In this document: positions 1-29,387 of the stretch, one piece after another | Numbering within the stretch: the stretch's first letter is position 1 | How the letters are laid out: every line of letters begins with the position of its first letter | Program-made: the position numbers and the translations under genes | DNA from: a virus | Lineage: Duplodnaviria > Caudoviricetes | Length of the DNA stretch: 35,505 nucleotides | IMG/VR virus record: IMGVR_UViG_3300035394_000065 | Coordinates: 1-35,505 of that record | Strand: one strand, 5' to 3' | Notes under the pieces: model-generated | What the model saw: only the letters and a program-made list of their open reading frames with translations | Databases searched by the model: none | Told to the model about the DNA's origin: nothing

Positions 1-129
1 ACATCGGTTTTGTGCAAGTGGGGCTGAATTGCTAAATTCAACAGCAGTAATACTAATCGGCTTTTGTGCTAAATTGAAACTTTCGTGTTCCAAATCCCAA
101 CCTGCACAAAGCCGAGAAACGTTATAAGC
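1..129 (-). mobile_element. attC-like hairpin site, truncated by window start
   Basis: Minus strand: GCTTATAAC right after the stop of ORF 134-325, arm CGGCTTTGTGCAGGTTGGG pairs with CCCCACTTGCACAAAACCG, then ATGT| at the window edge (expected GTTA). Same architecture as the five other sites. Confidence 0.7.
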
Positions 130-7581: not shown

Positions 7582-8969
7582 TGAAAGCTACTATCGTATT
7601 TTCTAAAAATTGGAATGCTATAAATGAGCGCAATGAAGATGGTAGCAATAAATATAGATACATAATAAATAAAGGTTCATCAAGGTCATCAAAAACCATA
7701 TCGTTAACACAATTATACGACCTTTACGCAAGGAATAACAACGGAAAACGGTGTACTGTTTGGAGAGATACGAAAACAGATTGTAAGAAAACTGTATTGA
7801 ATGACTTTCTAAAAATGTTAAAACGTGAAAACCTTTATAGGGTAAATCAAGACTTTAATAAAACTGAATCGATATTCTTATATTCAACTGATTCAACAGT
7901 TGAAATACATGGTACGGACGATGAGGAGACAGTACATGGATTGACTCAAGATATGGCATGGTTAAATGAGCCATATAAAATAAGTAAAGAAACATTTAAC
8001 CAAATAGACCAGCGGACATCAGATTTTATTTTTATAGATTACAACCCAAAAAAAGGACATTGGATTGAGGATTTAATAAAAGACCCCCGTTCAATTGTAA
8101 TACAGTCAACATTTAGAGACAACCCGTTTTGTCCTATTGAACAGAAAACTAAAATACTTTCATACCAGCCCATATCTTATTCAGATGTAGTTTTAAGCGG
8201 TCTAATTTCAGCAGAAGAAGCAAAGACTTATGATTTATTGATTAATAGATTATCATTCACTACAAAGCAATTAAAAGAGTTGTTAAGATGCAGAGAAAAT
8301 CACGATAAGAATAGCGCAAGTAATTTCAATTGGCAGGTGTACGGGCTTGGAGTTAAATCAGAGCGTCCGAATAGAATACTACATTTCAAGGAAATTAGTT
8401 TAGAAAACTATTTAAAACTAGATTACGATATAATCGTAGGAGTTGACTGGGGAGCGGTAGACCCATTTGGAATAGTTGAAGCGAAATATAACGACGGCAA
8501 TTTATATTTAAGAGAATTAAATTATCATAGTGAGAATAAAATACGTGAAAAAATAAGCGCAACGGAGCGGATTCAAATAAATGCGGATTCAAGTGATGAG
8601 GTTGCAATTGAGGGAGGTATCGTAACCTGGTTATTTAAAAAATTAGGCATAAGCAAAAAAGTACCCATAATTTGTGATACGAATAGACCTTTAAAAATAG
8701 CTTCATTAAGGCGTGCTGGATATAACGCTTTGCAGGCTAACAAGCCAAAGGATAGTATCGTAGATGGAATTGATTTGTTAAGCAATTTAAACGTATATTA
8801 TACAAGTGATTCAGAAAATTTAAAAATCGAACAGGAAAACTATTCAAGAAAAGTAGATAGGTACGGTATTATAATGGAAGAACCTGAGGATAATAATAAC
8901 CATTTAATAGACCCTACAAGATATATCGCTTTGTACTTAAAAATAATAGGAAAAATTAAAATAGTTTAG
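7581..8969 (+). CDS. terL: terminase large subunit (PBSX-like)
   Basis: KGSSRSSKT Walker A, WLNE Walker B, DYNP, STFRDNPF, GVDWG, NHLIDPTRY nuclease motifs. Confidence 0.9.
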   Translation: MKATIVFSKNWNAINERNEDGSNKYRYIINKGSSRSSKTISLTQLYDLYARNNNGKRCTVWRDTKTDCKKTVLNDFLKMLKRENLYRVNQDFNKTESIFLYSTDSTVEIHGTDDEETVHGLTQDMAWLNEPYKISKETFNQIDQRTSDFIFIDYNPKKGHWIEDLIKDPRSIVIQSTFRDNPFCPIEQKTKILSYQPISYSDVVLSGLISAEEAKTYDLLINRLSFTTKQLKELLRCRENHDKNSASNFNWQVYGLGVKSERPNRILHFKEISLENYLKLDYDIIVGVDWGAVDPFGIVEAKYNDGNLYLRELNYHSENKIREKISATERIQINADSSDEVAIEGGIVTWLFKKLGISKKVPIICDTNRPLKIASLRRAGYNALQANKPKDSIVDGIDLLSNLNVYYTSDSENLKIEQENYSRKVDRYGIIMEEPEDNNNHLIDPTRYIALYLKIIGKIKIV

Positions 8970-9066
8970 CTTATTTAGAATCATTATAAATTACATTTAT
9001 TTTTATTTTTTATTTGTTTTTAATTAAATAATATTCTTATATTTGTATCACATAACAATTAAAAAA
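8966..9066 (+). promoter_or_regulatory. early promoter copy 2 with Fur/PerR-like palindrome; heads the cassette block
   Basis: ATTTAGAATCATTATAAAT 8973-8991, TTTG 9013-9016, TATATTTG 9038-9045 (21-nt spacer). Confidence 0.8.
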
Positions 9067-9075
9067 ATAGAAATT

Positions 9076-9305: not shown

Positions 9306-9623
9306 ATGTTACATATATTCGAATGCACAAAAGAGGAACTATTAACCTTTGAAATTTTAAAGAATTACAAGGGTCATAGTGTAAGAATAAAACCAATTCT
9401 GGATAAGCCACAAAATAAATTATACAATTTTGGTAACTGTAAAATGTTAATTAATAATGACATTGATATAACAAGAGAGCTTCATGTTCTATTTCAAATG
9501 TTTAACGGTTTTGAAGTAGATTTGGGTATAATAACGCAAGAAATGGTAGAGGATAAAGAACATTTTGAATATTTTATTAATGAAAGATTAAAATATATCG
9601 GGGCGTTTTTAAATGGCATATAA
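9306..9623 (+). CDS. hypothetical protein
   Basis: 105-aa ORF ending just before the first attC-like site. Confidence 0.6.
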   Translation: MLHIFECTKEELLTFEILKNYKGHSVRIKPILDKPQNKLYNFGNCKMLINNDIDITRELHVLFQMFNGFEVDLGIITQEMVEDKEHFEYFINERLKYIGAFLNGI

Positions 9624-9637
9624 CGGTTTCGTTTTTT

Positions 9638-9766
9638 GCGCTAACATACGCTATACGAAGGCAAGGGTTAAGATGCACTCCCTTTCAGCCTTGCACAAAT
9701 GATAAATAGATGTACACCGCTTGGATTAGCAGTAAGGCCCCTGCTTTTGTATAGCGTATGTTATAG
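9638..9766 (+). mobile_element. attC-like site 1
   Basis: TAACATACGCTATACGAAGGCAAGGG ... CCCCTGCTTTTGTATAGCGTATGTTA inverted arms. Confidence 0.75.
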
Positions 9767-9784
9767 GGCGTTTATTTTAAGATT

Positions 9785-9988
9785 ATGCCAGATATTACAA
9801 TGTGCACAAATGAAGAATGTCCGCTTTCATATAGTTGTTGGCGGTTTAATTGTCCACCAAGTCAATACCAACAAAGCTATGCGAAGTTTGAACCGCAAAT
9901 CGATAAAGTGTTGGATGAAGTGGAATGTAAAATGTATTTAGAAACCCAAAATAGTGAAAAGTCGGACGTTGTGAGGTTGTTCGGTTAA
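9785..9988 (+). CDS. small Cys-rich phage protein (cassette 1 cargo)
   Basis: MPDITMC-x4-CP-x4-CWRF pattern; bounded by GTTATAGGGCGTTTA (9760) and TAAATGCCCTATAAC (9986-10000). Confidence 0.75.
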   Translation: MPDITMCTNEECPLSYSCWRFNCPPSQYQQSYAKFEPQIDKVLDEVECKMYLETQNSEKSDVVRLFG

Positions 9989-9993
9989 ATGCC

Positions 9994-10124
9994 CTATAAC
10001 GGTTTGGGGCTTTGCGAAGGCAGGGCTTCAAGGCACAAAAGTTCAAATTTAGCACAATGTTTAATAGTAGTACAAATGTTCAATAAACCACTAATGCCCT
10101 GCTTTTGCGAAACCCTTGTTATGG
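9994..10124 (+). mobile_element. attC-like site 2
   Basis: TAAC-GGTTT-GGGGCTTTGCGAAGGCAGGGC ... GCCCTGCTTTTGCGAAACCC-TT-GTTATGG. Confidence 0.75.
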
Positions 10125-10155
10125 GCAGTACGGTATTTAACACGAGATTTTTAAA

Positions 10156-11154
10156 ATGGAAGTAAATAAAATATATCATAGTGATTGGATGAATAATAAT
10201 CTTGCTGACAAATCGGTGCAGTTGATTATTGCAGACCCACCGTACTACAAAGTAAAAGGAGATTTTGACTTTGTTTGGAAAACCTTTGATGATTACCTGC
10301 AAGATGTAGAAAAATGGGCGATAGAATGTAAAAGAGTTTTAGCTGATAATGGAACGCTTTATTGGTATGGAGATGCTAAAAATATTGCCTACGCTCAAAT
10401 AATATTTGATAAGCATTTTAATTTATTGAATAGTTTGGTATGGGAAAACACAAACGACCATAAGCAACAAATACGCTTTAATACTGATTTGCGAACCTTT
10501 GCACCACTTACTGAAAGATTGCTGATGTATAGCAATGATTTTGATATTGATTTTACGGTAGAGATAAGAAGTAATAAAAATAATTTTTTGCCAATTAAGG
10601 AATATATGAGAGAAGAAAGAAAAAAATGTGGATTAAGTGCATCAAAATTAAAAGAGAAAACAGGGCTTCCTTGTAATTTAAAGTTAATAGGTATGTATTT
10701 TGGTGATGTACAATGGCAACTACCTACAAAAGAAAATTATGAAATGCTACAAAAGACAGGATATTGGCAAAAACCTTTTGAAGTACTAAGAGAAGAATTT
10801 GAAGTACTAAGAGAAGAATTTGAAGTACTAAGAGAAGAATTTGAAGTGCTACGCAGACCGTTTAACAATGAACGTTTTTATGGTGATGTGATTAGAATCC
10901 CAAACTATGAAACAGGAAACCACGAACACGACACGCCAAAACCTGAAAAACTAACAAGGGAAATAATACTAATAAGTAGCAGACCAAACGACCTTATTTT
11001 AGTTCCTTTTGCTGGAAGTGGAACAGAGTGTGCAATGGCTATAAAAGAAAATAGAAACTTTATAGGATTTGAAATAAACGAAAAATACGTAAATTATGGC
11101 AATAAACGAACCGACAATATTAAGGCACAACCGTCATTGTTTGCAGTGTCGTAG
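10156..11154 (+). CDS. DNA N6-adenine/N4-cytosine methyltransferase, beta class (cassette 2 cargo)
   Basis: IIADPPY catalytic motif near the N-terminus, HDTPKP and PFAGSGT SAM-binding motif near the C-terminus. Confidence 0.9.
   Translation: MEVNKIYHSDWMNNNLADKSVQLIIADPPYYKVKGDFDFVWKTFDDYLQDVEKWAIECKRVLADNGTLYWYGDAKNIAYAQIIFDKHFNLLNSLVWENTNDHKQQIRFNTDLRTFAPLTERLLMYSNDFDIDFTVEIRSNKNNFLPIKEYMREERKKCGLSASKLKEKTGLPCNLKLIGMYFGDVQWQLPTKENYEMLQKTGYWQKPFEVLREEFEVLREEFEVLREEFEVLRRPFNNERFYGDVIRIPNYETGNHEHDTPKPEKLTREIILISSRPNDLILVPFAGSGTECAMAIKENRNFIGFEINEKYVNYGNKRTDNIKAQPSLFAVS
10777..10851 (+). repeat. 21-bp tandem repeat x3.5 encoding heptad FEVLREE
   Basis: TTTGAAGTACTAAGAGAAGAA at 10777, 10798, 10819, partial at 10840. 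Confidence 0.95.
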
Positions 11155-11160
11155 TATTGC

Positions 11161-11346
11161 TTATAACTGTTTAGCGGTTGGCGCAGTGCGTATTATTAAC
11201 GAAAAACTTAAATAGAGACGATATGACAAAAGCAGAAGAAATTTACCACCGTTTTGTTCAATACGAATGGAACGAAATAGGAGAAGGGATGAAGAAAAGT
11301 ATCTTAGATGCGATTAACGAAGCATTGCGCCAACCGCCTGTTAGCG
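11161..11346 (+). mobile_element. attC-like site 3 with a long, coding loop
   Basis: TAAC-TGTTTA-GCGGTTGGCGCAGTGC ... GCATTGCGCCAACCGC-CT-GTTAGCG. Confidence 0.7.
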
Positions 11347-11447
11347 GTTCGTTGGGCTTTGATGAAGGTTATGAAAAGGGATGGACTGATGCCACATCTC
11401 AAGCCATTAATGAAATACAAAAGAACTATAAGCCCAATGACCACTAA
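11223..11447 (+). CDS. hypothetical protein spanning the attC-like site 3 / cassette 3 junction
   Basis: ATG at 11223 inside the hairpin loop; the right arm and GTTA are translated as ALRQPPVSGS. Confidence 0.6.
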   Translation: MTKAEEIYHRFVQYEWNEIGEGMKKSILDAINEALRQPPVSGSLGFDEGYEKGWTDATSQAINEIQKNYKPNDH

Positions 11448-11537
11448 TTTTGGGCTTTGTGTCAGTTTGCCCTTGCACAAATGCTCAAATTATAGACAAA
11501 TGTTAATAGGGCAAATTGCACAAAACCCGTGTTAGTA
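11442..11537 (+). mobile_element. attC-like site 4 (TAAT instead of TAAC)
   Basis: GGGCTTTGTGTCAGTTTGCCCT ... AGGGCAAATTGCACAAAACCC-GT-GTTAGTA, with one extra T in the left arm. Confidence 0.7.
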
Positions 11538-11596
11538 GCTGGCGGGATTTTCAGCACTAAAGCTCAATCGAAGCACTAAAGAAAAAAGTATTAAAA

Positions 11597-12679
11597 ATGT
11601 GTGATGGCAAATATGGTTTTGAAAAAACCAAACATAACTTCCCTTACAAATGGACTTTGAAGGATGCGGTATTTACAAAAGACAAGGGCAAAGTATTTAG
11701 TTGTTTTGCTTGTGGTGGCGGTTCAACAATGGGCTATAAATTAGCAGGATTTGACGTATTAGGATGCAATGAAATTGACCCTAAAATGATTGAAGCATAC
11801 AAAGCTAACCATAATCCAAAATATGCTTATTTAGAGCCAATACAGACCTTTAAATTAAGGACTGATTTGCCTGATGAACTTTACAATTTAGAGATTTTGG
11901 ATGGTTCACCGCCTTGCAGTAGCTTTTCAATGGCTGGAAATAGAGAAAAAGACTGGGGCAAAGAAAAGAAATTTAGAGAAGGACAAGCAGAACAAATACT
12001 TGATAACCTTTTCTTTGATTTTATAGACCTTGCAAAAAAGTTACAACCAAAAGTAGTAATAGCTGAAAATGTGAAAGGATTGCTTTTAGGAAATGCAAAG
12101 CAATATGTAAGGCAGATTTATAGGGAATTTGATTTGGCTGGTTATTACTGCCAACATTGGCTACTGGATGCAAGTAAAATGGGTGTGCCACAAAAAAGAG
12201 AAAGGGTTTTCTTTATAGCAATGAGAAAAGATTTAGCTGAACCATTTTTGTATAATGCTGATATGTTTACAATAGTGCCAAAGTTGGAATTGCAATTTAA
12301 AGAAGCTGAAATATTATTTAAAGATTTGCTATTTGAAGATGAAGGGAAAATTTGCGAGTGGGAAGGTAAATGGATGTGGGAAAAAATTTCATTCGGTTCT
12401 TATTCACAGGTGCATCCAAAGCAACAATATTTTGGAGCTATAAAAGTAAATCCTGATGATGTTTGCCCAACTGTTGTAAGTAATACTGGAAGTGAATTAT
12501 TTGATTACAGAGAAAATAGGCATTTAAGTAAAGAACAATTATCACAGGTTGGAACATATCCATTAGATTATAATTATGTAAATGTTCCTTTTAAGTATTT
12601 AATAGGAATGTCAGTTCCACCTGTAATGACTGCACAAATAGCAAAACAAGTATATGAACAATGGTTATCAAAAATTTAA
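11597..12679 (+). CDS. DNA cytosine-5 methyltransferase (cassette 4 cargo)
   Basis: FACGGG (motif I), GSPPCSSFS (motif IV), ENV, QKRERVF, GMSVPP (motif X). Confidence 0.92.
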   Translation: MCDGKYGFEKTKHNFPYKWTLKDAVFTKDKGKVFSCFACGGGSTMGYKLAGFDVLGCNEIDPKMIEAYKANHNPKYAYLEPIQTFKLRTDLPDELYNLEILDGSPPCSSFSMAGNREKDWGKEKKFREGQAEQILDNLFFDFIDLAKKLQPKVVIAENVKGLLLGNAKQYVRQIYREFDLAGYYCQHWLLDASKMGVPQKRERVFFIAMRKDLAEPFLYNADMFTIVPKLELQFKEAEILFKDLLFEDEGKICEWEGKWMWEKISFGSYSQVHPKQQYFGAIKVNPDDVCPTVVSNTGSELFDYRENRHLSKEQLSQVGTYPLDYNYVNVPFKYLIGMSVPPVMTAQIAKQVYEQWLSKI

Positions 12680-12769
12680 TGGCTGCGGAGCAGACAAAGA
12701 GGGAGGGAAAATTTTTAATACTTTTTTCTATCCTGAACTTCAATCGAAGCACGTCCGCCCGCTTGCTAC

Positions 12770-12855
12770 TAACTAATTACTAAAAGAACATTTAATACAC
12801 TTGAATCATGCGTATTTCCTTGAATTTCTCTTGCAAATATTGTTTAGATTTCGAT
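12770..12855 (+). repeat. 86-bp segment, inverted copy of 34502-34587
   Basis: 82/86 identity by manual alignment; starts at the terminal TAAC of the array and overlaps the portal stop codon. Confidence 0.92.
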
Positions 12856-14049
12856 TATATTTAAAGCTTCTTGCAATGTCATTCCCGAACCTACTAGCGT
12901 TGAAATTGATTCCGATTTGTTTTTATTAGCTATTGTTTTCTCTAATATATTTTCTTGCAAAACTGGAACATTTGAATAGTCTAATCGTAACCACTCATTT
13001 TTACCGTCCAAGCCGAAAAGTTTTGTTCTATTCATTGACAATTCTTCTGATAAAGGTATTATGGTTGTTTGGAAAACGTTTCGCAAAGATGAAATTTTAT
13101 TTTCATAAGTTGATGCAGTTGAAAAGATATTTTCATCAAGACCCAAAACGTCTATAATTTTTTTAAATCCTGCGTCAACTTCTTCAAAAAGTAGCATATC
13201 TTTTATAGGATATGCGGTGCTATTCCATTTTAGGTTAGCATCACTAATAAATATTTTGCTTTTACCGTCTTCAATGCCGTAATTTTTCACATAAGCATCC
13301 TCCATTCTTTTTCTATCTTCTGGTGCAACGGCAACCGCTCCGATTGCGTCTTTTGTATTATTAGAAATAAAACCAAGCGCACCCTCCTTTGTCATAATTA
13401 CGTTTCTAAATTTTTTGGATGCGCGTATGTTTGAAATATCCATATACAAAGATTTCAAAGGCGATTCCCCTAAAATAGGATTATTGCTATTATTTAACTT
13501 TGTATGGTTTATTTGTTCGATTGTTAATTTCTCGTTTTCATCACCATTTTTGTAAATATAGTATTCAATTATTTCATTAATATCTTGTTGTTTATACCAT
13601 TTACCTGTTATTTTAGCTTCGATTTTATTAGTTTCTAAGATGTTCAATATTTTAGGCGATGAATTTTTAAATGGTTTTAATACAAATTCGTAATTATTAC
13701 CGTATAAAATCATATTCATATCGTAAAGTCTTATTAATTCGTTTCCATTCATCAAAGGGTTTGGATTCTCTAATATATTCACAAAAGGCGATTTAATTAC
13801 TTCTTCGATAATTCCTTTACTATTCATTTTCTCATGCTTCCATTCGCCACACGAAAGCATCAAACCACGTCTAACTATTGGTGCATAAAGCTCCGATGTT
13901 GTTATCATTAAGTCATAAGCATTTTTATTGTTAATTTGTATAAATTCAGGTTCACCGCTTAAATCTGTAATATTATTGCCTATGTATCTAGTTTTATAAT
14001 ACTCGTTCGCTCCTGTAAAAAATGTCAAAAGTTTATCAATAAAATTCAT
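12844..14049 (-). CDS. portal protein (HK97-like), inverted relative to other structural genes
   Basis: LENPNPLM, YGNNY, GESPL, GALGFI, TIIPL patterns; 401 aa; between terminase and protease. Confidence 0.85.
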   Translation of the reverse strand: MNFIDKLLTFFTGANEYYKTRYIGNNITDLSGEPEFIQINNKNAYDLMITTSELYAPIVRRGLMLSCGEWKHEKMNSKGIIEEVIKSPFVNILENPNPLMNGNELIRLYDMNMILYGNNYEFVLKPFKNSSPKILNILETNKIEAKITGKWYKQQDINEIIEYYIYKNGDENEKLTIEQINHTKLNNSNNPILGESPLKSLYMDISNIRASKKFRNVIMTKEGALGFISNNTKDAIGAVAVAPEDRKRMEDAYVKNYGIEDGKSKIFISDANLKWNSTAYPIKDMLLFEEVDAGFKKIIDVLGLDENIFSTASTYENKISSLRNVFQTTIIPLSEELSMNRTKLFGLDGKNEWLRLDYSNVPVLQENILEKTIANKNKSESISTLVGSGMTLQEALNIIEI

Positions 14050-14065
14050 ATAAATATTTTTTTTT

Positions 14066-14130
14066 CAAATATAAGTCTATTTAACATAATAAATAGTATA
14101 TTTGAAAAATCTATTTAACATAATATTATT
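14066..14130. promoter_or_regulatory. divergent -7 promoters (portal / head operon) with two CTATTTAACATAAT boxes
   Basis: TATATTTG minus at 14066-14073 and plus at 14097-14104; boxes at 14077-14090 and 14111-14124. Confidence 0.7.
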
Positions 14131-14253
14131 ATGGGCAAAAATGAGGTTTTAAAAAACTTAAAAGAAAAGTTAGAAAAGTTAGAAAATAGCAATATAAAAA
14201 CGGCTATTAAAGAGGATATTAAAGTAAAGGGGGCGGATTACGTAAAGAAATGA
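14131..14253 (+). CDS. small hypothetical protein (40 aa), not in ORF track
   Basis: MGKNEVLKNLKEKLEKLENS...; ATGA overlap with the protease gene. Confidence 0.5.
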   Translation: MGKNEVLKNLKEKLEKLENSNIKTAIKEDIKVKGADYVKK

Positions 14254-15020
14254 TAAAGTCTATTGATTTTCCTTTAAAAGAATTTTCAACAAAAGAAGAG
14301 TTGTTTGCTGAATTAAAATCAAACAAAGACGATTTAATTAATCTTAAAAAGGCAAATTTAAAGAACTCAGATGAATTCTTTTTTAATAATGTTATAAAAG
14401 AAAGCACTATTAAATCAATTGATTTTGAGGATGAATATATTTATTCTGTAATAAATACAACTAAGATAATGGACAGTCATAACGATGTTCATTTAGACGG
14501 TATTTGGAACAAATCAATTAAGGAGCAAGCTGGCAAAATTTATTACGTTGCGGACCATAAATTAGAATTATGTTCAGTAATTGCATATCCAAAAGATGTT
14601 GAAATGCAATTAGAAAATATCGACTTTAAGGAATTAGGCATTGAAACAAATGGAACTACTCAGGCTTTAATTTTTAAGGTTAAAAAAGACAAAATTCGCC
14701 TTAATGCTTTTAAAGATATTATTAACGAAAATATACAAGTACAGCATTCTATTAGAATGAAGTACGATAAAATGTTTCTTTGTATAGATTCAGATTCAAA
14801 GGAATATAAAGAAGAGAAAACCAACTGGAATAACTATATAGAAAATGTAGTTAACAAGGAAAGAGCTGAAGAGGTTGGATATTTTTGGGCGGTTACCGAG
14901 GCGCAAATATTTAAAGAGGGGAGTTTTGTAACTGGTGGCGGTTCTAATCATGTAACTCCATTAATGCAAAAGTCTGAGATTAAACAAGCAAATAAATCAA
15001 ATTTTTACTTTACTATATGA
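14250..15020 (+). CDS. putative prohead protease
   Basis: MDSHNDVH, ADH, QHSI, EGSFV..GSN..TP motifs resembling HK97-type maturation proteases; position before the capsid gene. Confidence 0.7.
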   Translation: MIKSIDFPLKEFSTKEELFAELKSNKDDLINLKKANLKNSDEFFFNNVIKESTIKSIDFEDEYIYSVINTTKIMDSHNDVHLDGIWNKSIKEQAGKIYYVADHKLELCSVIAYPKDVEMQLENIDFKELGIETNGTTQALIFKVKKDKIRLNAFKDIINENIQVQHSIRMKYDKMFLCIDSDSKEYKEEKTNWNNYIENVVNKERAEEVGYFWAVTEAQIFKEGSFVTGGGSNHVTPLMQKSEIKQANKSNFYFTI

Positions 15021-15577
15021 TAACAATAGAACGAGTTAACGAGTATATATATTTAACTGATTTAACAACCAATAGAGTATACGAGGGTTTACGACATAAT
15101 GTTCAATTAAACGTTTTAGATACTGGATTAGCTGAATGGACTATTTCAGGGTTAAATCAATGGGACATAAGAAAGGTATTTTTAGCAACCGACACTAATT
15201 TGGGTAATGGCACCGCATTAAAAGCATGGGCGGAAGCTAATCTAGGAATACAGTCAAGTGGCGGTAGCATTGACATTTCAACACTTGCTACACAAGTGAC
15301 ATTGCAGGAGGTTAGCGACAAGTTAAGCAATTTAACGGGGTTACAGCCTTACATGGTACGAGAAAGCGTTGCTAATACCGCTCCTGACTGTTATTCGATT
15401 TCATTTTTTAACAACGGTAACACTGATATATTTATCAATGTAGGTGGTGTTCCTAATATATTGAAAACAGGTGAGCAAATTGAATTTAATGCAGGAAATT
15501 TAAGGTATTACCCGAATGGTATGTTTACATACGATGCAACTGGTTCTGAATTAATTTTAACGGCTAATTTAGTTTAA
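15017..15577 (+). CDS. hypothetical virion/decoration protein
   Basis: Beta-rich, G/N/T-rich, inside the head operon. Confidence 0.5.
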   Translation: MITIERVNEYIYLTDLTTNRVYEGLRHNVQLNVLDTGLAEWTISGLNQWDIRKVFLATDTNLGNGTALKAWAEANLGIQSSGGSIDISTLATQVTLQEVSDKLSNLTGLQPYMVRESVANTAPDCYSISFFNNGNTDIFINVGGVPNILKTGEQIEFNAGNLRYYPNGMFTYDATGSELILTANLV

Positions 15578-15579
15578 TA

Positions 15580-16377
15580 ATGGCAAAAAGTACATATAAT
15601 AAAACGCCTGAAAATACATTAGTTATTCCTAAACCTATTATAACTAATATATATCAAGGTTCTCAACAAGCTAGAACGGACGTAATACCTCCTACTGGAG
15701 TTTATAACACTTTGATTGGTATGCAGGTTGTTTATCCTGATGGATATGAAGAATTTCAAGAAAAGGTAGAAGCAGGATTAATAAGAATGCAATTAGTACA
15801 CTGGGACACTAAAACGAAATCAAGGAAATCCGCACCCGATGGTGCTGGTGGAATTTCTAGTCAAGCTTTAAAGCGAAATAACACTCCAAGGTTTATTATT
15901 AATCAAAACGCTGATTTAGATTATGGAGATTATTTCTTTGGAAGCAAGGTTTATGATATTAATGGTATTCAGATGCCAAACGTACTATCTGCCGTTTATT
16001 TGCCTATTAATTTAAAGTCTAGGCAACCAATAGATTTTCAATTAGATTGCCCATATTTTTATGGTAAAGATGCTGATACTGTGGGTAGGATAGTTGATTA
16101 CTTCCCATTTACTTATATAGATGCTATTAAAAAGGATTCAGTTATAACAATTAGAGGCGAGGGTTACAAGACTAATTTCATTGGTAGAGAAAAGCCTGTT
16201 GTTTTGAAATTAAGCAAGTATTTTAGTTTTGTATTTATGTACAAAAATGATTTAGGAAAATGGGAAATGGGCGATTATTCGCAACAATTTAGATTATCAA
16301 TTGATACGATTAACTACGACGATGGAATGGGTACTACCGAAAAGTATTATTATAGATTCGTTGTAAGGCTTGTTTAA
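15580..16377 (+). CDS. hypothetical protein in head operon
   Basis: 265-aa ORF, no recognised motif. Confidence 0.6.
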   Translation: MAKSTYNKTPENTLVIPKPIITNIYQGSQQARTDVIPPTGVYNTLIGMQVVYPDGYEEFQEKVEAGLIRMQLVHWDTKTKSRKSAPDGAGGISSQALKRNNTPRFIINQNADLDYGDYFFGSKVYDINGIQMPNVLSAVYLPINLKSRQPIDFQLDCPYFYGKDADTVGRIVDYFPFTYIDAIKKDSVITIRGEGYKTNFIGREKPVVLKLSKYFSFVFMYKNDLGKWEMGDYSQQFRLSIDTINYDDGMGTTEKYYYRFVVRLV

Positions 16378-16384
16378 GGCATTT

Positions 16385-16465
16385 GGGTAGCTTCGGCTAT
16401 GCAAAGTAAAGATGGGTAGCTTCGGCTATGTATCGAATTTAAAGGGGTAGCTTCGGCTATCCTTT
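16385..16465 (+). repeat. three GGGTAGCTTCGGCTAT hairpin repeats; the third is terminator-like
   Basis: Copies at 16385, 16414, 16445; each is TAGC-TTCG-GCTA; the third extends to AAAGG...CCTTT. Confidence 0.85.
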
Positions 16466-16576
16466 GTTTAGAAAATTAAGAAATTGAAGCCGTTTTAAAG
16501 ACACTTCAAAAGTGAGCCGTTTATAAAAGAACACTCAAAAAAAATATATAAGTAGTAATAATTAATTTTAAAAAAA

Positions 16577-17857
16577 ATGTTTGTAGAAAAAACAAAAAAC
16601 GAATTTGATTCTATGAATGAAGATGAGCAAAACAAATATCTAGTTGATAAAAAGGCTCATGATTCAATGATTAGACAAAAGGAAATTTTAGACGCAATTT
16701 CTGAACAAAAGAAAATTTCTGATTCAGAAAGCAAAGAAGTGATTGAAAGACTTGAAAATGAATTAAAATCTGTTAAAGATAATTTAGATGAATTTTCGTT
16801 AAAAGTTCAATCTATTACAGAACAAAAAAATTCAAAAAATATGGAAAAAACTATTTTAGATTCGATAGTTGAAAACATTGATAAAATCAAGTCAGTTTTC
16901 AAGCAAGGTAGTGGAGTTGTTGATATTTATACGGAGAAAGCCGTTGATATTATAGCAACCACAAACGCAACAAATCCAGACGGCATTCCTGAATTGGTGG
17001 GTGTTCAAATGGCGAACCCATCAAATGTTAACTTAAAAGCTCCTAGCGTTGTTGACATGATGAATACAGTGCCTACAAGTTTATCTGCATATCCTTATAC
17101 TGAGGTTGTGCCAAAAGATGGAGATTATGCTTTCGTTGCTGAAAAAGGTTTAAAACCTCAAATTGATTTCGCTATCGAGACGCGTTACGCAACTCCTGTA
17201 AAGATTGCAGCGTATGAGCATTTAACAACTGAGTCTACACAAGATATTCCTAATTTAATGAGTATTGCTCGTGATTTTCTTAGAAAGAAACACGATTTAT
17301 TCAAAGAAAAAGGTTTGTTAAACGGCGACGGTTTGGGAGTTAATGCAAAAGGTGTTACGAGTTACGGGCGTGCCTTTGTAGCTGGTTCAATGGCTAATAC
17401 TTTATCAGTTGTTAACTTCATGGACGTTGTTAATGCAGGTATAACTGACATTTTTACTACACATAATTATCAAGATGAAACGCCTTATAGAGCGAATGTA
17501 GTGTTGGTTAACCCTATTGACTTTTTCATAAAATTAGTTTCCGCAAAAGATGCAAACGGCTTGCCTTTGTATCCAACGGCTAGTTTATTTAATAAAGTTG
17601 TTTTAGGCGGTGTTACAATTATGCCTCATGAAGATATTGCAGTTGGCAAGATTTTCATTGGAGATTTAACTAAGTACAATATCACCAATTACGTTGGCTA
17701 TACTGTTCGCATTGGTTGGATTAACGATGATTTTATTCGCAATCAATTTGTGATGGTTGGTGAGTCAAGATTCCATGCTTTTGTTAAGAATTTAGACAAA
17801 CAGGCATTTATTTACGATGATATTGCAGTTATTGAAGCGGCTTTACAAATTCCTTAA
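16577..17857 (+). CDS. major capsid protein (HK97 fold) with N-terminal coiled-coil scaffold domain
   Basis: Charged N-terminal ~100 aa; AFVAEKGLKP, KIAAY, LNGDG, KDANGLPLY, FIGD motifs. Confidence 0.88.
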   Translation: MFVEKTKNEFDSMNEDEQNKYLVDKKAHDSMIRQKEILDAISEQKKISDSESKEVIERLENELKSVKDNLDEFSLKVQSITEQKNSKNMEKTILDSIVENIDKIKSVFKQGSGVVDIYTEKAVDIIATTNATNPDGIPELVGVQMANPSNVNLKAPSVVDMMNTVPTSLSAYPYTEVVPKDGDYAFVAEKGLKPQIDFAIETRYATPVKIAAYEHLTTESTQDIPNLMSIARDFLRKKHDLFKEKGLLNGDGLGVNAKGVTSYGRAFVAGSMANTLSVVNFMDVVNAGITDIFTTHNYQDETPYRANVVLVNPIDFFIKLVSAKDANGLPLYPTASLFNKVVLGGVTIMPHEDIAVGKIFIGDLTKYNITNYVGYTVRIGWINDDFIRNQFVMVGESRFHAFVKNLDKQAFIYDDIAVIEAALQIP

Positions 17858-17859
17858 TA

Positions 17860-18027
17860 ATGAAAAAAACTAAATTTATTTCAAGTGGAAAATCTAAATT
17901 TTTAAAGAAAGGTTTGGAATTAATGTTAACAGATGAAATGATTGAGATTTTCACGAAAAAAGGTTACGGGAGTGTAGCTGAAGAAGCGGTAAAAAAGAAA
18001 ACAAAACCAACTATTGACAATCAATAG
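17860..18027 (+). CDS. small basic protein after the capsid gene (55 aa), not in ORF track
   Basis: Translated by hand: MKKTKFISSGKSKFLKKG...; ends in a hairpin. Confidence 0.6.
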   Translation: MKKTKFISSGKSKFLKKGLELMLTDEMIEIFTKKGYGSVAEEAVKKKTKPTIDNQ

Positions 18028-18034
18028 TTGGTTT
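18004..18034 (+). terminator. hairpin terminator
   Basis: AAACCAACTATTGA-CAA-TCAATAGTTGGTTT. Confidence 0.65.
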
Positions 18035-18050
18035 ATAAAAGGATTTCAAA

Positions 18051-18536
18051 ATGGTTACAGTTGGAGATTTTATAGGAAAATACGAAAGTGCAGTAAACGA
18101 CTTTACTCAGGCAAAAATACTTTTGTATATACAAAAATACGAGAAACATTATGCTTTAAAGTTGTTGGGAGTTGATTTGTATAACCTTTGGGTTGTAAAC
18201 CCTTTAATACCTCCATTTGATGCTATTACCAATCCGTTTGTTTTTCAGTCAAGTTGTGGAACGATTCACGAATCAATCGGTATAAAAGACATGCTAACTG
18301 GATTCATTTACTTTCATTTAGTTAACGACATTCGAAGTCAACAAACTTTGGGAGGTTCGGTATCAAAGGCGAATGAAAACAGTATGCAAAACACATCAAT
18401 CCAATCTGGAGCATGGGAGCGTTTTAATAGTAGTGTTTACACTTATGAAGCTATACAAGCGTTTATTTGTGAACATTTAACTGATTATCCTACATTCAAA
18501 GGAGTTGAGCAGGATATTATAATACCTTATTTTTAA
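18051..18536 (+). CDS. putative head-tail connector/adaptor
   Basis: Size and position after the capsid gene; assignment by synteny only. Confidence 0.5.
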   Translation: MVTVGDFIGKYESAVNDFTQAKILLYIQKYEKHYALKLLGVDLYNLWVVNPLIPPFDAITNPFVFQSSCGTIHESIGIKDMLTGFIYFHLVNDIRSQQTLGGSVSKANENSMQNTSIQSGAWERFNSSVYTYEAIQAFICEHLTDYPTFKGVEQDIIIPYF

Positions 18537-18537
18537 C

Positions 18538-19209
18538 ATGGAGGACATTGTGTACATAGTAGAGCGTGAAATAATTGATAAACTAGATTTATCAATTAAT
18601 GTACTTAGCATTAATGCTAATACGATTCACGTATGCAATTTAAAGTGGGCACAAGTTGGCAAAGTGTTAACGGCGGAGGATGGACAAGAATACACTATTA
18701 TTAATATTGACTATGTTAACAACGATATAACGTTTTCAACTCCATTTGTTTCATCAATAGGTTTTGTATTTTTAGAGCGTCCAAAATATAAGTATGGAAC
18801 TCCGAAAACAACTAATGTAGAGTGGTCACCAAACGAGTTAGGTGTAACGCCTTGCATTTGGCTAGTAGAGCCTTTAAATGAAACGTTTTTAGGGAATGAG
18901 AGTAGTGTAGAGCGTGAAAGTCCTTTGAGGTTGTTGTTGTTAAACTCTAGGGATGCCGTAAATTGGTTGAATAAAGATATCCACGATATGAGAAGCAAGC
19001 AGTTATATTCATTACAAGATGAGATTATTGAAACAATTGAAGCGAATCCTATATTTAAAAAGTACAAGGATTTTGATTCTAGGAACTTAACGAAGTTAGG
19101 AACTGAGAGTGCTCAAGGTTTTGAGAAAAACATTATAGATAGTGATTTAACAGCATTAGATTTAAGGTTGACGTTACCTATTTACAAAACGTCGAATTGT
19201 ATATGTTAA
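18538..19209 (+). CDS. putative neck/tail-completion protein
   Basis: Acidic, directly before the major tail gene; synteny only. Confidence 0.45.
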   Translation: MEDIVYIVEREIIDKLDLSINVLSINANTIHVCNLKWAQVGKVLTAEDGQEYTIINIDYVNNDITFSTPFVSSIGFVFLERPKYKYGTPKTTNVEWSPNELGVTPCIWLVEPLNETFLGNESSVERESPLRLLLLNSRDAVNWLNKDIHDMRSKQLYSLQDEIIETIEANPIFKKYKDFDSRNLTKLGTESAQGFEKNIIDSDLTALDLRLTLPIYKTSNCIC

Positions 19210-19229
19210 ATTTTAAAAAAAAATAAATT

Positions 19230-20156
19230 ATGTCACAAAATTGTTCATGTGGGGGTAGATTAGGGGCGACTGGCGTAGATAACTGCGTTATTTTGTTCGG
19301 TACTACTCACAATTTTATTTTAGTACCTACCTATAAGGCTGACGGTACTAGAAACTTTATTGATATTTCTTCGCCAACTTTAGGTGCTGATATTCAATCA
19401 ATGGTTTCAATTAACACGCCTATGTTGGAGCGTTTATATCCTTTGTCATTTGCTGAAAACATTACACGTGCCAAAACTGATAGAGTTTTAGAAACGGCAC
19501 CTAGTGGGAATATTTATAACGTTCAAGACGGTTTGCGCCAGAATCATATGGAATTTTATGGTGATAGTGGAACGGTGAGAGGTTTAGAGCAGTTGCAAAA
19601 GTTTGGATGCACTCAAATGAGTTACTATTCAGTAGATATTAACGGCACTTTGGAAGGTGTTTTGGAGTCAGATGGTTCGAATGAGTTTTATCCTTTTCCA
19701 ATTATGGATAATAGCTACTTTGCACAATTTGAATATGCAACGGATACTACTATCAACAAATTAATGTTGGATTTCAATTTGCAACGTAATTTTGATGAGT
19801 CAACTATCTATTATTTAACAAAAGCGGATTTAGGATTTAGTGCAACTTCGTTAAAAGGTTTAATTCCTTGTACTATGACTGTTTCTAATATCACTACAAC
19901 TGGTGTAACTGTTAAGGTAGGAAAAAACAACGGTTCTGCGCTTGCGTTCAAACCTTTAAGCGGAATGTTAGGTGGCGATTTCGCTTTGTATGACAATACA
20001 GGTGTGGCAATCGTTCCAATTTTAGGAAGCACTGAGGTAAATCCAGGCGAGTACGCTTTGACTTATGCCGATGTACTTGGTGCGAATGAGTTTACATTAA
20101 GTGCGGTAGTAATGGGTCACGACATTCAAGACGTTACTTACCAAGACCCTGCATAA
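19230..20156 (+). CDS. putative major tail protein with C-terminal Ig-like extension
   Basis: 308 aa, G/T/S-rich, followed by a small gene and terminator, upstream of the tape measure. Confidence 0.6.
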   Translation: MSQNCSCGGRLGATGVDNCVILFGTTHNFILVPTYKADGTRNFIDISSPTLGADIQSMVSINTPMLERLYPLSFAENITRAKTDRVLETAPSGNIYNVQDGLRQNHMEFYGDSGTVRGLEQLQKFGCTQMSYYSVDINGTLEGVLESDGSNEFYPFPIMDNSYFAQFEYATDTTINKLMLDFNLQRNFDESTIYYLTKADLGFSATSLKGLIPCTMTVSNITTTGVTVKVGKNNGSALAFKPLSGMLGGDFALYDNTGVAIVPILGSTEVNPGEYALTYADVLGANEFTLSAVVMGHDIQDVTYQDPA

Positions 20157-20317
20157 TGTTGGACAAAAAAAAAGAATGGCTAATCATTGGCAATAGTTCT
20201 TTTCTTATATCGTATTTAAAGGACGTGAACATGACTGATGCGATAAAAAGATATAAAGGAACTTGTCACGAGGATAGGATTCGCAACGCTTGGAAACAAG
20301 CTAATAACAAAAAATAA
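20156..20317 (+). CDS. small hypothetical protein (53 aa), not in ORF track
   Basis: TAATG-coupled to the tail gene; followed by hairpin CGCCCGAA...TTCGGGCG. Confidence 0.55.
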   Translation: MLDKKKEWLIIGNSSFLISYLKDVNMTDAIKRYKGTCHEDRIRNAWKQANNKK

Positions 20318-20352
20318 AAGATGCGCCCGAATTATTTTTACTTCGGGCGTTT

Positions 20353-20430
20353 CTATTTAACATAATATTATTATATTTGCATTAATAGTATTTATTGGCA
20401 AACAAGGACGTTTTAAGGCGTCCTTTTTTT
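20353..20430 (+). promoter_or_regulatory. box + -7 promoter followed by a terminator-like hairpin
   Basis: CTATTTAACATAAT 20353-20366, TATATTTG 20372-20379, AAGGACG..CGTCCTT plus T tract 20404-20430. Confidence 0.6.
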
Positions 20431-20434
20431 ATAT

Positions 20435-20890
20435 ATGATAGACACAAGACCATTATATAAAATTTATAAAAGCCTTAGCAGGTTAACTGATGACAATCTT
20501 TGGATTAATTCAATTGACGGCAAGGTTAAGGCGTTTATTATACAGATGAATACAATAGACCAGTTATACAATAAAGGTATTGATAGTTTAGGTGAAAAGG
20601 TTGGAGGTGGTGAATATAGACATTTAACGATAGCTATAAAAAAACATAAAGGTCAAAGATATGACCATTTTACGTTAAAAGATACGGGGGCATTTTACGA
20701 CAGTTGGGTTGTAAAGGTTGATAGGGATGGTTTAATATTGGATGCAGACGACTCAAGCTTTTATGACAAACCACTATTTGAGGTTTATGGTGAGGATGTG
20801 TTGGGGTTAACTGATGAAAATAAATTGAAATTGTTTTATATTATTCGGGAAAATTACATTAATTACATTAAGAATGAATTATTACGTTAA
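20435..20890 (+). CDS. putative neck/virion morphogenesis protein
   Basis: TLKDTGAFYDSW resembles the (L/V)xDTGxLxxS motif of HK97 gp10-like proteins. Confidence 0.6.
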   Translation: MIDTRPLYKIYKSLSRLTDDNLWINSIDGKVKAFIIQMNTIDQLYNKGIDSLGEKVGGGEYRHLTIAIKKHKGQRYDHFTLKDTGAFYDSWVVKVDRDGLILDADDSSFYDKPLFEVYGEDVLGLTDENKLKLFYIIRENYINYIKNELLR

Positions 20891-21311
20891 TATTGAAGAA
20901 ATGCCGTTATATAATTGGGAGAAGTGCCAAGATGGTGATTTGACTTTTATTCGAAAGGATATTTTATTAGGTAGTGAAGAGCAGGATTTTAAGGCTTGGG
21001 AGCTATTGCAGTACGATTATATGGAGCGGTTTGGAGTTAGTACAAAACACGCTAGATTTTCTATTTTACAGCGTGATTTATTGGTGTTAAAATTGGAAAA
21101 AATAATAGGAGAGGATAGGTTTATTGATAGTAAAATTGACGATTTACAGGATGAAATAAAGTCTTTTTTCAGTTCAAATGTACAGGAGCGTAATATAATG
21201 GATAAAACTTTGATTCATTTGAATAAGGAATACAATTGCGGACTTGATAAGAAAAAAATTAGTGTATTTCATTTTTATTTAATGATTGAGGAATATGGCA
21301 AAAAGAATTAG
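20874..21311 (+). CDS. putative tail assembly chaperone
   Basis: Directly upstream of and overlapping the tape measure gene; synteny only. Confidence 0.45.
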   Translation: MNYYVNIEEMPLYNWEKCQDGDLTFIRKDILLGSEEQDFKAWELLQYDYMERFGVSTKHARFSILQRDLLVLKLEKIIGEDRFIDSKIDDLQDEIKSFFSSNVQERNIMDKTLIHLNKEYNCGLDKKKISVFHFYLMIEEYGKKN

Positions 21312-24300
21312 CAAAGCGGAGCTTGGAATAGATGATAATTTATTAAGCTCGTTAAATGAACAGTTAAATGAAGCTATAAGAAATACGAAACGTTATGAAG
21401 AAGCACAACGTAATTTAACGGCAATTAATAAAGTAGCAATAAGTGGCGCAAAAGATTATGTAAAGCTATTAAAAGAACAAAATTTGGCAACCGTTGAGGG
21501 TCAAAAGGAATACGCACAAAAAGCAAAAGAAGCGAATAGGCTAATATTAGAAGAGGAGAAAATAAAGCAATCGCAATTACGCACATCGAAGTTAATTGAG
21601 CAATCAAAACAAGCCGAATTGCGTACCCAAAAAATGATTAACACCGAGAAAGCGAAAACATTAACAGCGTACCAAAAAGAATCAAAGGCTTTAAATGAAA
21701 ATAGAGAGAAATGGAAGTCATTAGCTGTTCAACAGAAACAAAACACAAAGGAGGGGCGTGATTTATTAAGATTAATAAAACAGCAAGATGACAACCTAAA
21801 AAAAATAGATTCAACAGTAGGTCAGAATCAAAGAAGCGTTGGTAATTATTCAAAGGCTATTGGAGGTTTAAAAAGCGGATTAAGTCAATTAGGGTTAGCT
21901 TTTGGAGCGTTTCAATTAATTAGGTCGGCTGGAAGCACTATAATAGACTTTGAGGAGAACGCCGCTAATATGGCAAAGACTTTGGGTGTTTCAACATCTG
22001 AAGCTAAGAAATTAGCAAAAGAATTACTTTCAATCGACACGCGTACAAGTGTTGAGGAGTTGCAAAAGATAGCCACTATTGGAGGGCAATTAGGAATTGG
22101 AGCTAATGAAATTATAGGTTTTACAAAGGCTGTCGACACTTTAAATGTAGCACTTGGCGATGAGTTTACGGGCGGTGCTGAGGAGATTACAACCGTAATT
22201 GGTGGACTTAGAAACGTATTAACAGATATTAAAACGGACGATGTTTCCGCTGACTTGTTAAGCATAGGTAACGCCATAAATATATTAGGGGCAAATGGTA
22301 ATGCTACTGCTCCCGTTGTTTCTGATTTTGCTAATAGGATTGCAGGTATTGCCATACCTTTAGGGGTTTCAACTGACAAGATTTTAGGACTTTCGGCAAC
22401 CTTGCAAGAATTAGGGGTCAACCAGGAGCGAGGCGGAACGGCAGTTGGTAAGATTTTGCAAGAAATGGCAAAAAACGTAGGCGGGTTTGCTGAAATTGCT
22501 GGTGTTGACGTCACTAAGTTTGGGAAGTTAGTAAATGAGGATATATTTGAAGCGTTCAAAAAAGTTCTTGAGGGGTCTAAAAAATTCAAGGGTGACAATG
22601 TAGCGTTAACAAAAAGTTTGGATTCATTAGGTTTAAGCGGTTCGGGTGCAAGTGAGGTGTTTTTGAAATTAAGTGGCAATATGGAGCTACTAGATAAAAA
22701 GAACACTTTGGTAGCTGATGGATTAAAAAGTACAACTTCTCTTACAGATGAATTTAATGCTAAAAATAACACACTTGGAGCGTCAATTGAAAAGTTAGGT
22801 AAAGAATTTCAAAAGTATATTATTGGAATTGATGAAGCTGGCAATGTATCTGGTAAATTAGGCTCAGTTATAAATTTTTTAGTACATAATTTTGAAACTA
22901 TTGTAAATGTTATTGGTAAAGCGACCGTTGGGTTTTTATCTTTCAAGGCAATAACAAAATCTTTAGCTTTTGTTGACTTTGTAAAAATGAACGGAGGCAT
23001 TAAAGGAGTTGCAAAAGAAATGCTTAATCTAAGAACAAACACAGATATTGCGTCTTCATCAACTGGCAAAATGGGAGGTGTATTAAAAGGCATAGGATGG
23101 ACGGCATTAATTGGATTGGCTTTTGAGTTAGGTACTGAATTATATAGGATTGCAAGCGGTGCGGCGCAAGCTGAGGAGGATATGGCAAGACTTGAAAAAA
23201 CAACTGGAAATGCGTTGTCAAACACTGAAAAAAATATAAAAACAATAAAAGGTGTTTTATCTAATAAATTAGAGCAAATAGACTTAAAGGTTACGGATGG
23301 TAGCTTGAAAGATGAAAAGGAAATTTTAAGACTAAAAAATGAAGCTATCGCTACTGCGAAAATTGAATTAAGAAACAACATAGCAAGTGTAAGGGAGCGA
23401 AAAGATAAATATTTAGCTTTAAAAAAAGAAGCTGAATTATTAGCAAAAATACAATTTGCAGAAAGCAAAGGTGATGCTTTTAAGGTTCTAAAATCAAACG
23501 AACAACTAAAAGCTGAAAAACGTATTTTAGAAATTCAAAACGAATTAAAATTAAAGAAAAGCACAAATATATTTGGAGCTGAACAAACTATTTCGGCAGG
23601 TGATTTAATAGGGCAGTTGAGCGCAAATATTAATGCAACTAGCAAAAGTATTGAATTGTACAAAAATGAACTAGAAGACGTAAATATAGACCTTAATAGA
23701 AATATTGCAAAAACAAAAGGAGCTTCAAAAGAAACTGATAATTTTAGTGAGTCAACAAAAGGAGCTACAAAAGAAACAAAGGCTTTAAATACCGAGTTAA
23801 AAGAGCAAAACGAATATTTATCTAAGCAAGTTGAGTTATTAGAAGAATTGGATGAAATTAATAGAATTGAAGCCGAAACGAATATCCAATCTGAAATTGA
23901 TAGCGAGTTTAATAATTTACGAAAAATTGCAGAAGAAACGGGGCAACTAGATATTGATTTATTAGAAGAGTTATTAGCTAAAAAGAACGAGCTACAAAAA
24001 AAGCATATTGAAGAACGTGAAAGCTATGAGATTTCACAAATTAAAGAACGATATAGATTAGAAGCTGAATTAGCTAAAAATGAGTTAACAAATAATCGTG
24101 ATGAATTACTTTCACAAGATGGATTAACTCCAGAAGCTAAATTAAAAATAGAACAAAATTACCAAACTGAGTTGGCAAAACTAGATATGGATAATTTACA
24201 GCGGATTGCTGATATGGAGCTTGAAATTTTAATAATAAAAGGCAACTCAAAAAAGAAATTATTAGAATTGGATAAAAACTATGCTGATGAGGTTAATAAT

Positions 24301-26879: not shown

Positions 26880-26882
26880 AAA

Positions 26883-27089
26883 ATGAATGATTTAAAAGAA
26901 TTACAAGAAATAATAAACAAAACGCAATCAATTATTAATAAGACGTTAAACAATATACCTAGTGAATTTTTACCAAACTTTAAAGATGCTTCACTAGATT
27001 TGAATAATATTATTAAGGCGGTTAATAATAACGATATGGATGAATTAATTAAAATAAACAGCAAGTATGCCAATAAGAATAATAAGTAA
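26883..27089 (+). CDS. small hypothetical protein
   Basis: Fills the gap in the tail operon on the coding strand. Confidence 0.55.
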   Translation: MNDLKELQEIINKTQSIINKTLNNIPSEFLPNFKDASLDLNNIIKAVNNNDMDELIKINSKYANKNNK

Positions 27090-29382: not shown

Positions 29383-29387
29383 TAAAC

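What the first reader, a model, noticed from the sequence alone, without database searches (positions are those of the whole stretch)
12770..12855. Both arrays end in the same 86-bp sequence, and identity starts exactly at TAAC
Seen: 12770-12855 and 34587-34502 are 82/86 identical, yet the genes upstream differ (C5 MTase vs MT-A70) and similarity stops at the TAAC. Neither copy has a right arm. Established: IntI crosses over in the GTT (R') box, so a last cassette should keep its whole hairpin. Inference: here exchange also occurs at the TAAC side, so gene modules and hairpin linkers may be separately exchangeable, and this segment may be a fixed docking (attI-like) site at the array's 3' end.
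Basis: partly seen in the sequence, partly recalled or inferred. Interest (0 to 1): 0.78.

Follow-up and report, generated by a model that had tools for sequence, protein, structure and literature searches.

The report
Duplicated cassette docking site in phage
Near-identical copies of this bacterial virus carry different small genes joined at exactly the same base of a repeated 86-base segment, so the segment is likely a fixed docking site where an integron-like enzyme, probably borrowed from the host or another virus, plugs in gene cassettes facing the opposite way to those of bacterial integrons.

Summary
Confirmed: 12770-12855 and 34587-34502 match at 82 of 86 bases from TAAC, with no right arm. 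The segment is TAAC, a leader and the first 16 codons of a conserved 74-aa gene (whole at copy 2, cut at copy 1). Six different modules are joined at this TAAC in near-identical records and run contigs. In 60 homologue pairs with unlike upstream DNA, identity stops within 2 nt of TAAC in 57. So it behaves as an attI-like dock. The array is an integron read from the other strand, with ORFs facing the dock; Bacteroidota chromosomes use the same hairpins with ORFs the classical way. The window has no recombinase. Two other phages carry an IntI-related recombinase behind such a dock; the one tested lacks the IntI insertion. One record has the 21.8-kb block between the inverted copies flipped, switching within 9 nt of TAAC. 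The scan found this system before on other DNA; the inversion and the 74-aa partner gene were not among the notes I retrieved.

The parts
12770..12855 (+). Dock copy 1: TAAC core, 7-nt spacer, degenerate second box, leader, and a 16-codon stub of the 74-aa gene; the last 12 nt overlap the 3' end of the portal gene
34502..34587 (-). Dock copy 2 (likely the original), running on into the intact 74-aa gene
12770..12786 (+). Minimal attI-like site of copy 1: TAA, 7-nt spacer, CTA box; inferred crossover TAA|C
   Evidence: position table of 50 distinct docks; breakpoints
34325..34549 (-). Conserved 74-aa gene (P0001) in the position held by the recombinase in other phages; predicted fold resembles the N-terminal domain of I-HmuI, no Pfam family
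11445..12769 (+). Dock-proximal cassette of array A: hairpin 11445-11534 plus C5 methyltransferase 11597-12679
11164..11444 (+). Cassette: hairpin 11164-11343 plus short module
9997..11163 (+). Cassette: hairpin 9997-10121 plus N6/N4 methyltransferase 10156-11154; 9997-12769 is replaced by one other cassette in G001 and G004
9621..9996 (+). Dock-distal cassette: hairpin A1 (9642-9763, altered left arm) plus small gene
34588..35369 (-). Dock-proximal cassette of array B: hairpin 35369-35309 plus MT-A70 methyltransferase; G001 and G003 diverge right after this TAAC
1..124 (-). Hairpin of array B; the array continues through about 1006 bp missing between window positions 1 and 35505
   Evidence: G001, G003 and L311 bridge the gap
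12770..34587 (.). Block between the two inverted docks (portal, head, tail, lysis, small genes), in the opposite orientation in G003
12844..14049 (-). Portal gene; its stop codon lies inside dock copy 1
8966..9067 (+). Repeated AT-rich element (also 1016-1121 and 33932-34041 on the minus strand) at the far end of array A; candidate promoter
   Evidence: repeat; promoter motif count in the window only at chance level

Best explanation
The 86-bp segment holds a fixed docking site at whose TAAC different gene cassettes are joined in near-identical phage records, likely by an IntI-related tyrosine recombinase that this phage lacks and would borrow from its host or a co-infecting phage. Shown: breakpoints sit at TAAC; the exchanged unit is hairpin plus the gene after it; the site has a TAA, 7-nt spacer, (C/A)TA layout and no right arm; phage ORFs face the dock while host ORFs face away. 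Inferred: a cassette leaves as a circle whose two ends complete a long hairpin, the strand that reads TAAC first is cut at TAA|C and joined to the dock, and each new cassette lands next to the dock, at the end of the transcription unit farthest from the presumed promoter. Only about the first 17-58 bases would be the site. The rest is passenger DNA (leader and 16 codons) copied when a block of repeat, array and dock was inserted between the terminase and portal genes. Because the two docks are inverted, dock-by-dock recombination would flip the 21.8-kb structural block, as seen in G003 (about 55% for this step alone).
For: Six modules at this TAAC: C5 MTase, MT-A70, the G001/G004 copy-1 gene, the G004 copy-2 module, the G002 module and a loose end in run X4. 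Far breakpoints also at TAAC: identity ends at 10001 and 35365, one base past the core. 72 of 78 homologue loci have TAAC 28-60 nt before the ATG, 66 of them at 35-41 nt; in 60 pairs with a like leader and unlike upstream DNA, identity runs 0 nt left of TAAC in 40, at most 2 nt in 57, at most 8 in all (pairs not independent). 58 distinct upstream modules in 70 loci; 32 of 41 have a matching GTTA-plus-complement 5' end, against a permuted mean of 2.6 and maximum of 9. 71 of 114 divergence points lie on a core, none on a right arm; linkage 29 to 0. Polarity: hosts 59 antisense, 5 sense; viruses 19 sense, 5 antisense; Fisher p=1.4e-10. G002 and phage Leef_1 have array, dock and a recombinase ATG 56 and 58 nt after TAAC; six host loci have such a half-site beside a related recombinase. 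The TAAC-first strand folds more stably in 4 of 4 circularised cassettes. Terminase and portal are adjacent in L346 and L347. G003 has all four copy-2 alleles behind window 1-12769.
Against: No recombinase in G000, G001, G003 or G004, so enzyme and site are linked only by position in other genomes. No reaction was observed; raw reads were not available. 43 of 114 divergence points are not on a core. In run X1 a non-branching contig (9032-9773) forks 10 nt past the GTTA of hairpin A1 into another gene, and 98 of 167 same-hairpin, different-gene pairs lose identity right at GTTA, so genes can change behind a hairpin. 5 viral hairpins have antisense ORFs and 8 are unclear. In 2 of the 4 folded cassettes the strand difference is only 1-2 kcal/mol. 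The inversion rests on one record that shows one of the two junctions. Five of six host recombinases point toward the dock, not away from it. The promoter motif is at chance frequency.
Confidence: 0.8

Rival explanations
1. One reading: both cores are exchange points, so genes and hairpin linkers move as separate modules.
For: 167 pairs share a hairpin of 90% identity or more with different genes, 98 losing identity at GTTA; the fork behind hairpin A1 in run X1 and the same loose end in X4; L009 has an 88% identical hairpin with another gene.
Against: 0 pairs keep upstream gene and hairpin while changing the downstream gene, against 29 the other way; no right-arm breakpoint among 71; the X1 fork is 10 nt past the core; the right arm has a 3-nt spacer where dock and left arm have 7. 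Shared hairpin families also fit cassette birth or homologous recombination inside the hairpin (inference).
Confidence: 0.1
2. No dedicated site: the segment is a chance partial duplication of the start of a small gene, and upstream modules change by homologous or illegitimate recombination at short shared boxes.
For: The far end is ragged (86 bp here, 58 bp in G002), more than half of the segment is coding sequence, and the phage has no recombinase.
Against: Base-exact near end across many lineages; the same half-site stands before a recombinase gene in G002, Leef_1 and host loci; P12002L has a 69-nt duplicated array end that also starts at TAAC.
Confidence: 0.06
3. The dock is real, but G003 is an assembly chimera or a homologous crossover rather than dock-by-dock recombination.
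For: Single record; only one junction seen; k=31 graphs break at this repeat.
Against: The switch lies in the 9 nt between TAAC and the first variant base, about 11% of the marker intervals, while the longest identical stretches (33 and 32 nt) lie further in (inference).
Confidence: 0.4

Closest known systems
Classical integrons (IntI, attI, attC; class 1 and the Vibrio cholerae chromosomal integron; Nivina 2016 PMC5027507, passages read)
   Same: Fixed site with two boxes, hairpin-bounded single-gene cassettes, one crossover point in an AAC triplet, one strand folding more stably, new cassettes entering at the fixed site.
   Different: Phage ORFs face the dock (that paper says cassettes facing the promoter were never observed in mobile or chromosomal integrons); the associated recombinases lack the IntI insertion; the commonest hairpin family has a 6-versus-2 loop and mismatches instead of a single extrahelical base; a 74-aa gene stands where intI would.
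CALINs in virulent phages, above all Polaribacter phage P12002L (Qi 2023 PMC9892861; part 2 of 7 and passages read, supplements not read)
   Same: Methyltransferase-rich hairpin arrays in a Bacteroidota phage without integrase; P12002L also ends two arrays with an identical 69 nt starting at TAAC.
   Different: The passages read name no docking site, polarity rule or cognate recombinase; they call the P12002L sites divergent, and 'attI-like' occurs 0 times in the main text.
attI x attI recombination by IntI1 (Escudero 2016 PMC4792948, passages read)
   Same: Two double-stranded docking sites recombine, with a second strand exchange when inverted, moving arrays en bloc.
   Different: Shown for IntI1 in E. 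coli at 3-4 orders lower frequency; here it would invert a phage structural module and the enzyme is not an IntI.
Phage invertible segments (Mu gin, P1 cin) and plasmid shufflons (recalled)
   Same: Inverted sites flank a segment found in two orientations.
   Different: No invertase gene, no change of tail-fibre ends; the flip only changes which array precedes the 74-aa gene.
Treponema reverse integrons (search listing only; layout recalled)
   Same: Five host loci have the recombinase pointing toward the dock.
   Different: There the integrase is reversed; in the phage the cassette ORFs are reversed.

Membership tests
Integron | IntI integrase with the integron-specific insertion | tested here: not met
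   None in the window. Seven associated recombinases score 150-205 bits on TIGR02249, cut-off 265, in two stretches; against VchIntIA the gap is 21 versus 64 aa (L203) and 30 versus 78 aa (G002).
Integron | Fixed non-hairpin site with two boxes at which cassettes enter | tested here: met
Integron | That site lies next to the recombinase gene | tested here: not met
   A 74-aa gene or the portal follows it in the window; met only in G002, Leef_1 and host loci
Integron | Cassettes bounded by hairpins with complementary AAC/GTT cores and exchanged at one core only | tested here: met
Integron | Extrahelical bases near the L box of attC | tested here: inconclusive
   In 95 hairpins of one family the arms differ by a 4-nt longer spacer and mismatches, with no single unpaired base; other families not tabulated
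Integron | Cassette ORFs read away from attI, from a promoter at attI | tested here: not met
   Phage ORFs face the dock; host ORFs meet the rule
Integron | Recombination of a folded single strand with replicative resolution | not testable with these tools
   Only folding energies
CALIN | Two or more attC-type sites and no integrase | tested here: met
   Six hairpins, one cut by the window end, and no PF00589 match
CALIN | Sites recognised by the IntegronFinder or HattCI attC models | not testable with these tools
   Models not held; Rfam gave 0 matches
Invertase-driven invertible segment | Dedicated invertase gene near the sites | tested here: not met
   No recombinase family among 38 of the 62 listed ORFs scanned; six-frame PF00589 search negative
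NUMOD4/HNH homing endonuclease (74-aa gene) | NUMOD4-type DNA-binding domain | tested here: inconclusive
   Z 6.0, rmsd 2.3, 57 aligned to I-HmuI residues 1-63, next row 2.7; Foldseek E above 0.001; no Pfam match
NUMOD4/HNH homing endonuclease (74-aa gene) | HNH nuclease domain | tested here: not met
   The protein ends at 74-75 aa in nearly all homologues found; longer forms were not searched

The most novel reading that the evidence does not exclude
Bacteroidota phages run an inverted integron on a borrowed enzyme. Portable docks of about 60-90 bp are copied around and between phage genomes, seed new arrays, load cassettes with ORFs facing the dock, and, when two lie inverted, flip the whole virion module. 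The small I-HmuI-like protein encoded behind the dock binds it and helps recruit or gate the foreign recombinase.
Probability: 0.3. Interest if true: 0.88.

Novelty: new variant of a known kind. Interest (0 to 1): 0.72.

Why it matters
Integron surveys find very few integrons in Bacteroidetes (Neron 2022 PMC9024848, passages read), and phage hairpin arrays were reported without a docking site. This locus gives an exact dock, a base-exact crossover, six natural alternative cassettes in one phage population and a candidate enzyme from a phage that holds a copy of the same dock. That makes two questions directly testable: whether a recombinase without the IntI insertion can recombine folded hairpins, and how a phage swaps methyltransferase genes without owning an integrase. 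The opposite ORF polarity would also silence host cassettes taken up by the phage, and the reverse (inference).

Tried and rejected
Misassembly of a copy: rejected. A hidden right arm after the 74-aa gene: 1 of 68 docks reach the stem score. Portal inverted by the duplication: rejected, the orientation is shared with three relatives. A motif scan of loci L001-L180 for tyrosine recombinases found 0 (motif recalled, strict). A viral-contig scan with host recombinase L203 confirmed none of 16 candidates. P0001 and hairpin 9980-10140 had no match in the cultured-phage collection. Pfam on 49 members, Foldseek pdb and viral gave nothing at E 0.001. Rfam 0 matches. Sigma-70 and Bacteroidota promoter scans at chance level. 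PMC11054128 was irrelevant (passages). Rows dropped before counts: 3 of 86 loci not given to (two stubs, one fragment), 5 of 83 without a called ATG, 26 host hairpins with too little flank and 16 matches without a called hairpin. Literature searches without a description of this dock or polarity.

Full report
Setting. The window is a whole 35.5-kb virus record of a tailed phage: terminase, portal, capsid, tape measure and three DNA methyltransferases, no integrase. Related records show that about 1006 bp are missing between positions 1 and 35505, so array B is one continuous row. Its hairpin family occurs in 112 loci of bacterial genomes; nearly all of the 80 listed are Bacteroidota by title, which gives the likely host phylum.

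Observation. The two segments match at 82 of 86 bases from TAAC, far beyond chance, and neither can pair with a right arm. Bases 39-86 are the first 16 codons of a 74-aa gene, whole at copy 2 and cut at copy 1, where the last 12 bases overlap the portal gene's end. Both copies recur in other records.

Near-identical records carry other modules at the same base: G001 and G004 at copy 1, G004 at copy 2, the C5 cassette at copy 2 in G003, a further module before a 58-bp stub in the unrelated record G002, and a loose end in run X4. The 74-aa gene has 62 homologues. Of 78 loci with a called start, 72 have TAAC 28-60 nt upstream. In 60 pairs with a like leader and unlike upstream DNA, identity ends 0 nt left of TAAC in 40 and within 2 nt in 57 (the pairs share members). 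There are 58 distinct upstream modules in 70 loci, and 32 of 41 have the complementary 5' end expected of a cassette, against 2.6 in permutations. A docking site is supported.

Which core is used. Where G001 and G003 differ from the window, identity stops one base past the TAAC of the shared upstream gene and the hairpin changes with the downstream gene. Across all loci then held, 71 of 114 divergence points lie on a core. My patterns classed none as a right arm; five ambiguous ones share the 3' end of the C5 gene and are left arms by eye; 43 lie elsewhere, many inside genes. Among 122 hairpins, pairs of 90% identity or more keep the downstream gene in 29 cases and the upstream gene in 0. The unit is hairpin plus following gene. 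Against this: 167 pairs share a hairpin with both neighbours different, 98 losing identity at GTTA, and run X1 forks 10 nt past hairpin A1 into another gene. I read these as cassette birth or homologous exchange within hairpin families (inference).

Geometry. Fifty distinct docks give TAA, a 7-nt spacer, then (C/A)TA; the left arm of the hairpins has the same 7-nt spacing and the right arm only 3 nt. Nivina 2016 (PMC5027507, passages) places IntI cleavage between A and C of AAC on the bottom strand, which has the lower folding energy. Here the TAAC-first strand folds more stably in 4 of 4 circularised cassettes, by 1 to 8 kcal/mol. So the array is an integron-type row read from the other strand, and the segment is its attI-like start. 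With one hairpin pattern, host ORFs are antisense to that strand in 59, sense in 5, unclear in 5; viral ORFs are sense in 19, antisense in 5, unclear in 8. Hosts follow the classical polarity and these phages reverse the ORF.

Enzyme. G002, which holds the stub with copy-1 alleles at positions 10 and 44 and whose junction also stands in run X1, encodes a 266-aa tyrosine recombinase 56 nt after a dock of the same layout, behind cassettes facing it. Cultured phage Leef_1 shows the same. Eight recombinases were found in the 112 host loci, six beside such a half-site. The G002 enzyme is 41-45% identical to those six. All seven tested fall below the integron-integrase cut-off, and the two aligned lack 43-48 residues of VchIntIA at the insertion. 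In the window the 74-aa gene stands in the enzyme's place; its model matches I-HmuI residues 1-63 at Z 6.0, a lead only. That the enzyme acts in trans is inferred.

Origin of copy 1 and inversion. In L346 and L347 terminase and portal lie tail to tail with no array; L345 has about 1 kb between them. The block from the repeated element at 8966 to the dock was thus likely inserted between the two stop codons. Its far end is not site-specific (86, 58 and, in P12002L, 69 nt). G003 joins window 1-12769 to copy 2 with all four copy-2 alleles and the structural block reversed, so the switch lies within 9 nt of TAAC. Escudero 2016 (PMC4792948, passages) shows IntI1 can recombine inverted attI sites. 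One record and one junction make this about 55% likely.

Prior work. Qi 2023 (PMC9892861; part 2 of 7 and passages) reports hairpin clusters in P12002L and IntI1 activity on one of its two tested sites, but no dock in what I read; its supplementary annotation files were not read and could bear on that. Eight searches found no description of this dock or polarity. Earlier notes of this scan describe the same system on other DNA, including reversed polarity and a small Xer-type enzyme; they are leads, not support, and one was later marked as partly fallen. Look-ups for the inversion and for the 74-aa protein returned nothing.

Verdict. It works like the attI of an integron. It is not a member of the integron family, since the IntI insertion and the ORF polarity tests fail. 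New variant of a known kind; interest 0.72.

Noticed in passing
window 1254-1588: Large imperfect palindrome with ten TTACGTCA/TGACGTAA copies just before the primase-like gene; candidate replication origin, about 3 kb from dock copy 2 and 11 kb from copy 1.
   Followed up: no
window 256-638: Three and a bit tandem copies of a 116-117-nt unit, 88-94% alike, overlapping ORF 367-642.
   Followed up: no
window 11445-11448: The core before the C5 cassette reads TAAT; L310 and run X3 have three more bases that give TAAC, so the window's copy looks damaged.
   Followed up: partly
window 9621-9763: Hairpin A1 has two TAAC starts and a left arm that is a perfect complement of the right arm, unlike its relatives in L009 and runs X3, X4; possibly overwritten from the other arm.
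   Followed up: no
window 11164-11343: The hairpin loop holds a short ORF-like stretch with its own leader.
   Followed up: no
window 10777-10851: 21-nt tandem repeat inside the N6/N4 methyltransferase; related genes differ at this repeat.
   Followed up: no
window 12844-14250 and L345-L347: Portal is convergent with the terminase and divergent from the head genes in this whole phage group.
   Followed up: partly
L350 (P12002L) 37266 and 29240, minus strand: Both arrays of this cultured phage end in an identical 69 nt starting at TAAC; a ready experimental model.
   Followed up: partly
L349 (Leef_1), record 28078-28999: The gene annotated 'integrase' follows a cassette array and a dock; it may be the cassette recombinase rather than a prophage integrase. 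Several of its cores read CAAC.
   Followed up: partly
L233-L237, L250, L251: A Flavobacteriaceae genome with a long array of homogeneous hairpins, 6-9 per 12 kb, like a sedentary chromosomal integron.
   Followed up: no
L109, L111, L117: The same C5 cassette end is followed by other docks, leading to an unrelated gene or a tRNA-like stretch (by eye), so docks are not tied to the 74-aa gene.
   Followed up: partly
L070-L072: 68-aa relatives of the 74-aa gene lie between similar repeated spacers without any TAAC dock.
   Followed up: no
window 14062-14152, 20352-20416, 29348-29386: Short shared 23-30-nt motifs before structural gene blocks; possible late promoters.
   Followed up: no
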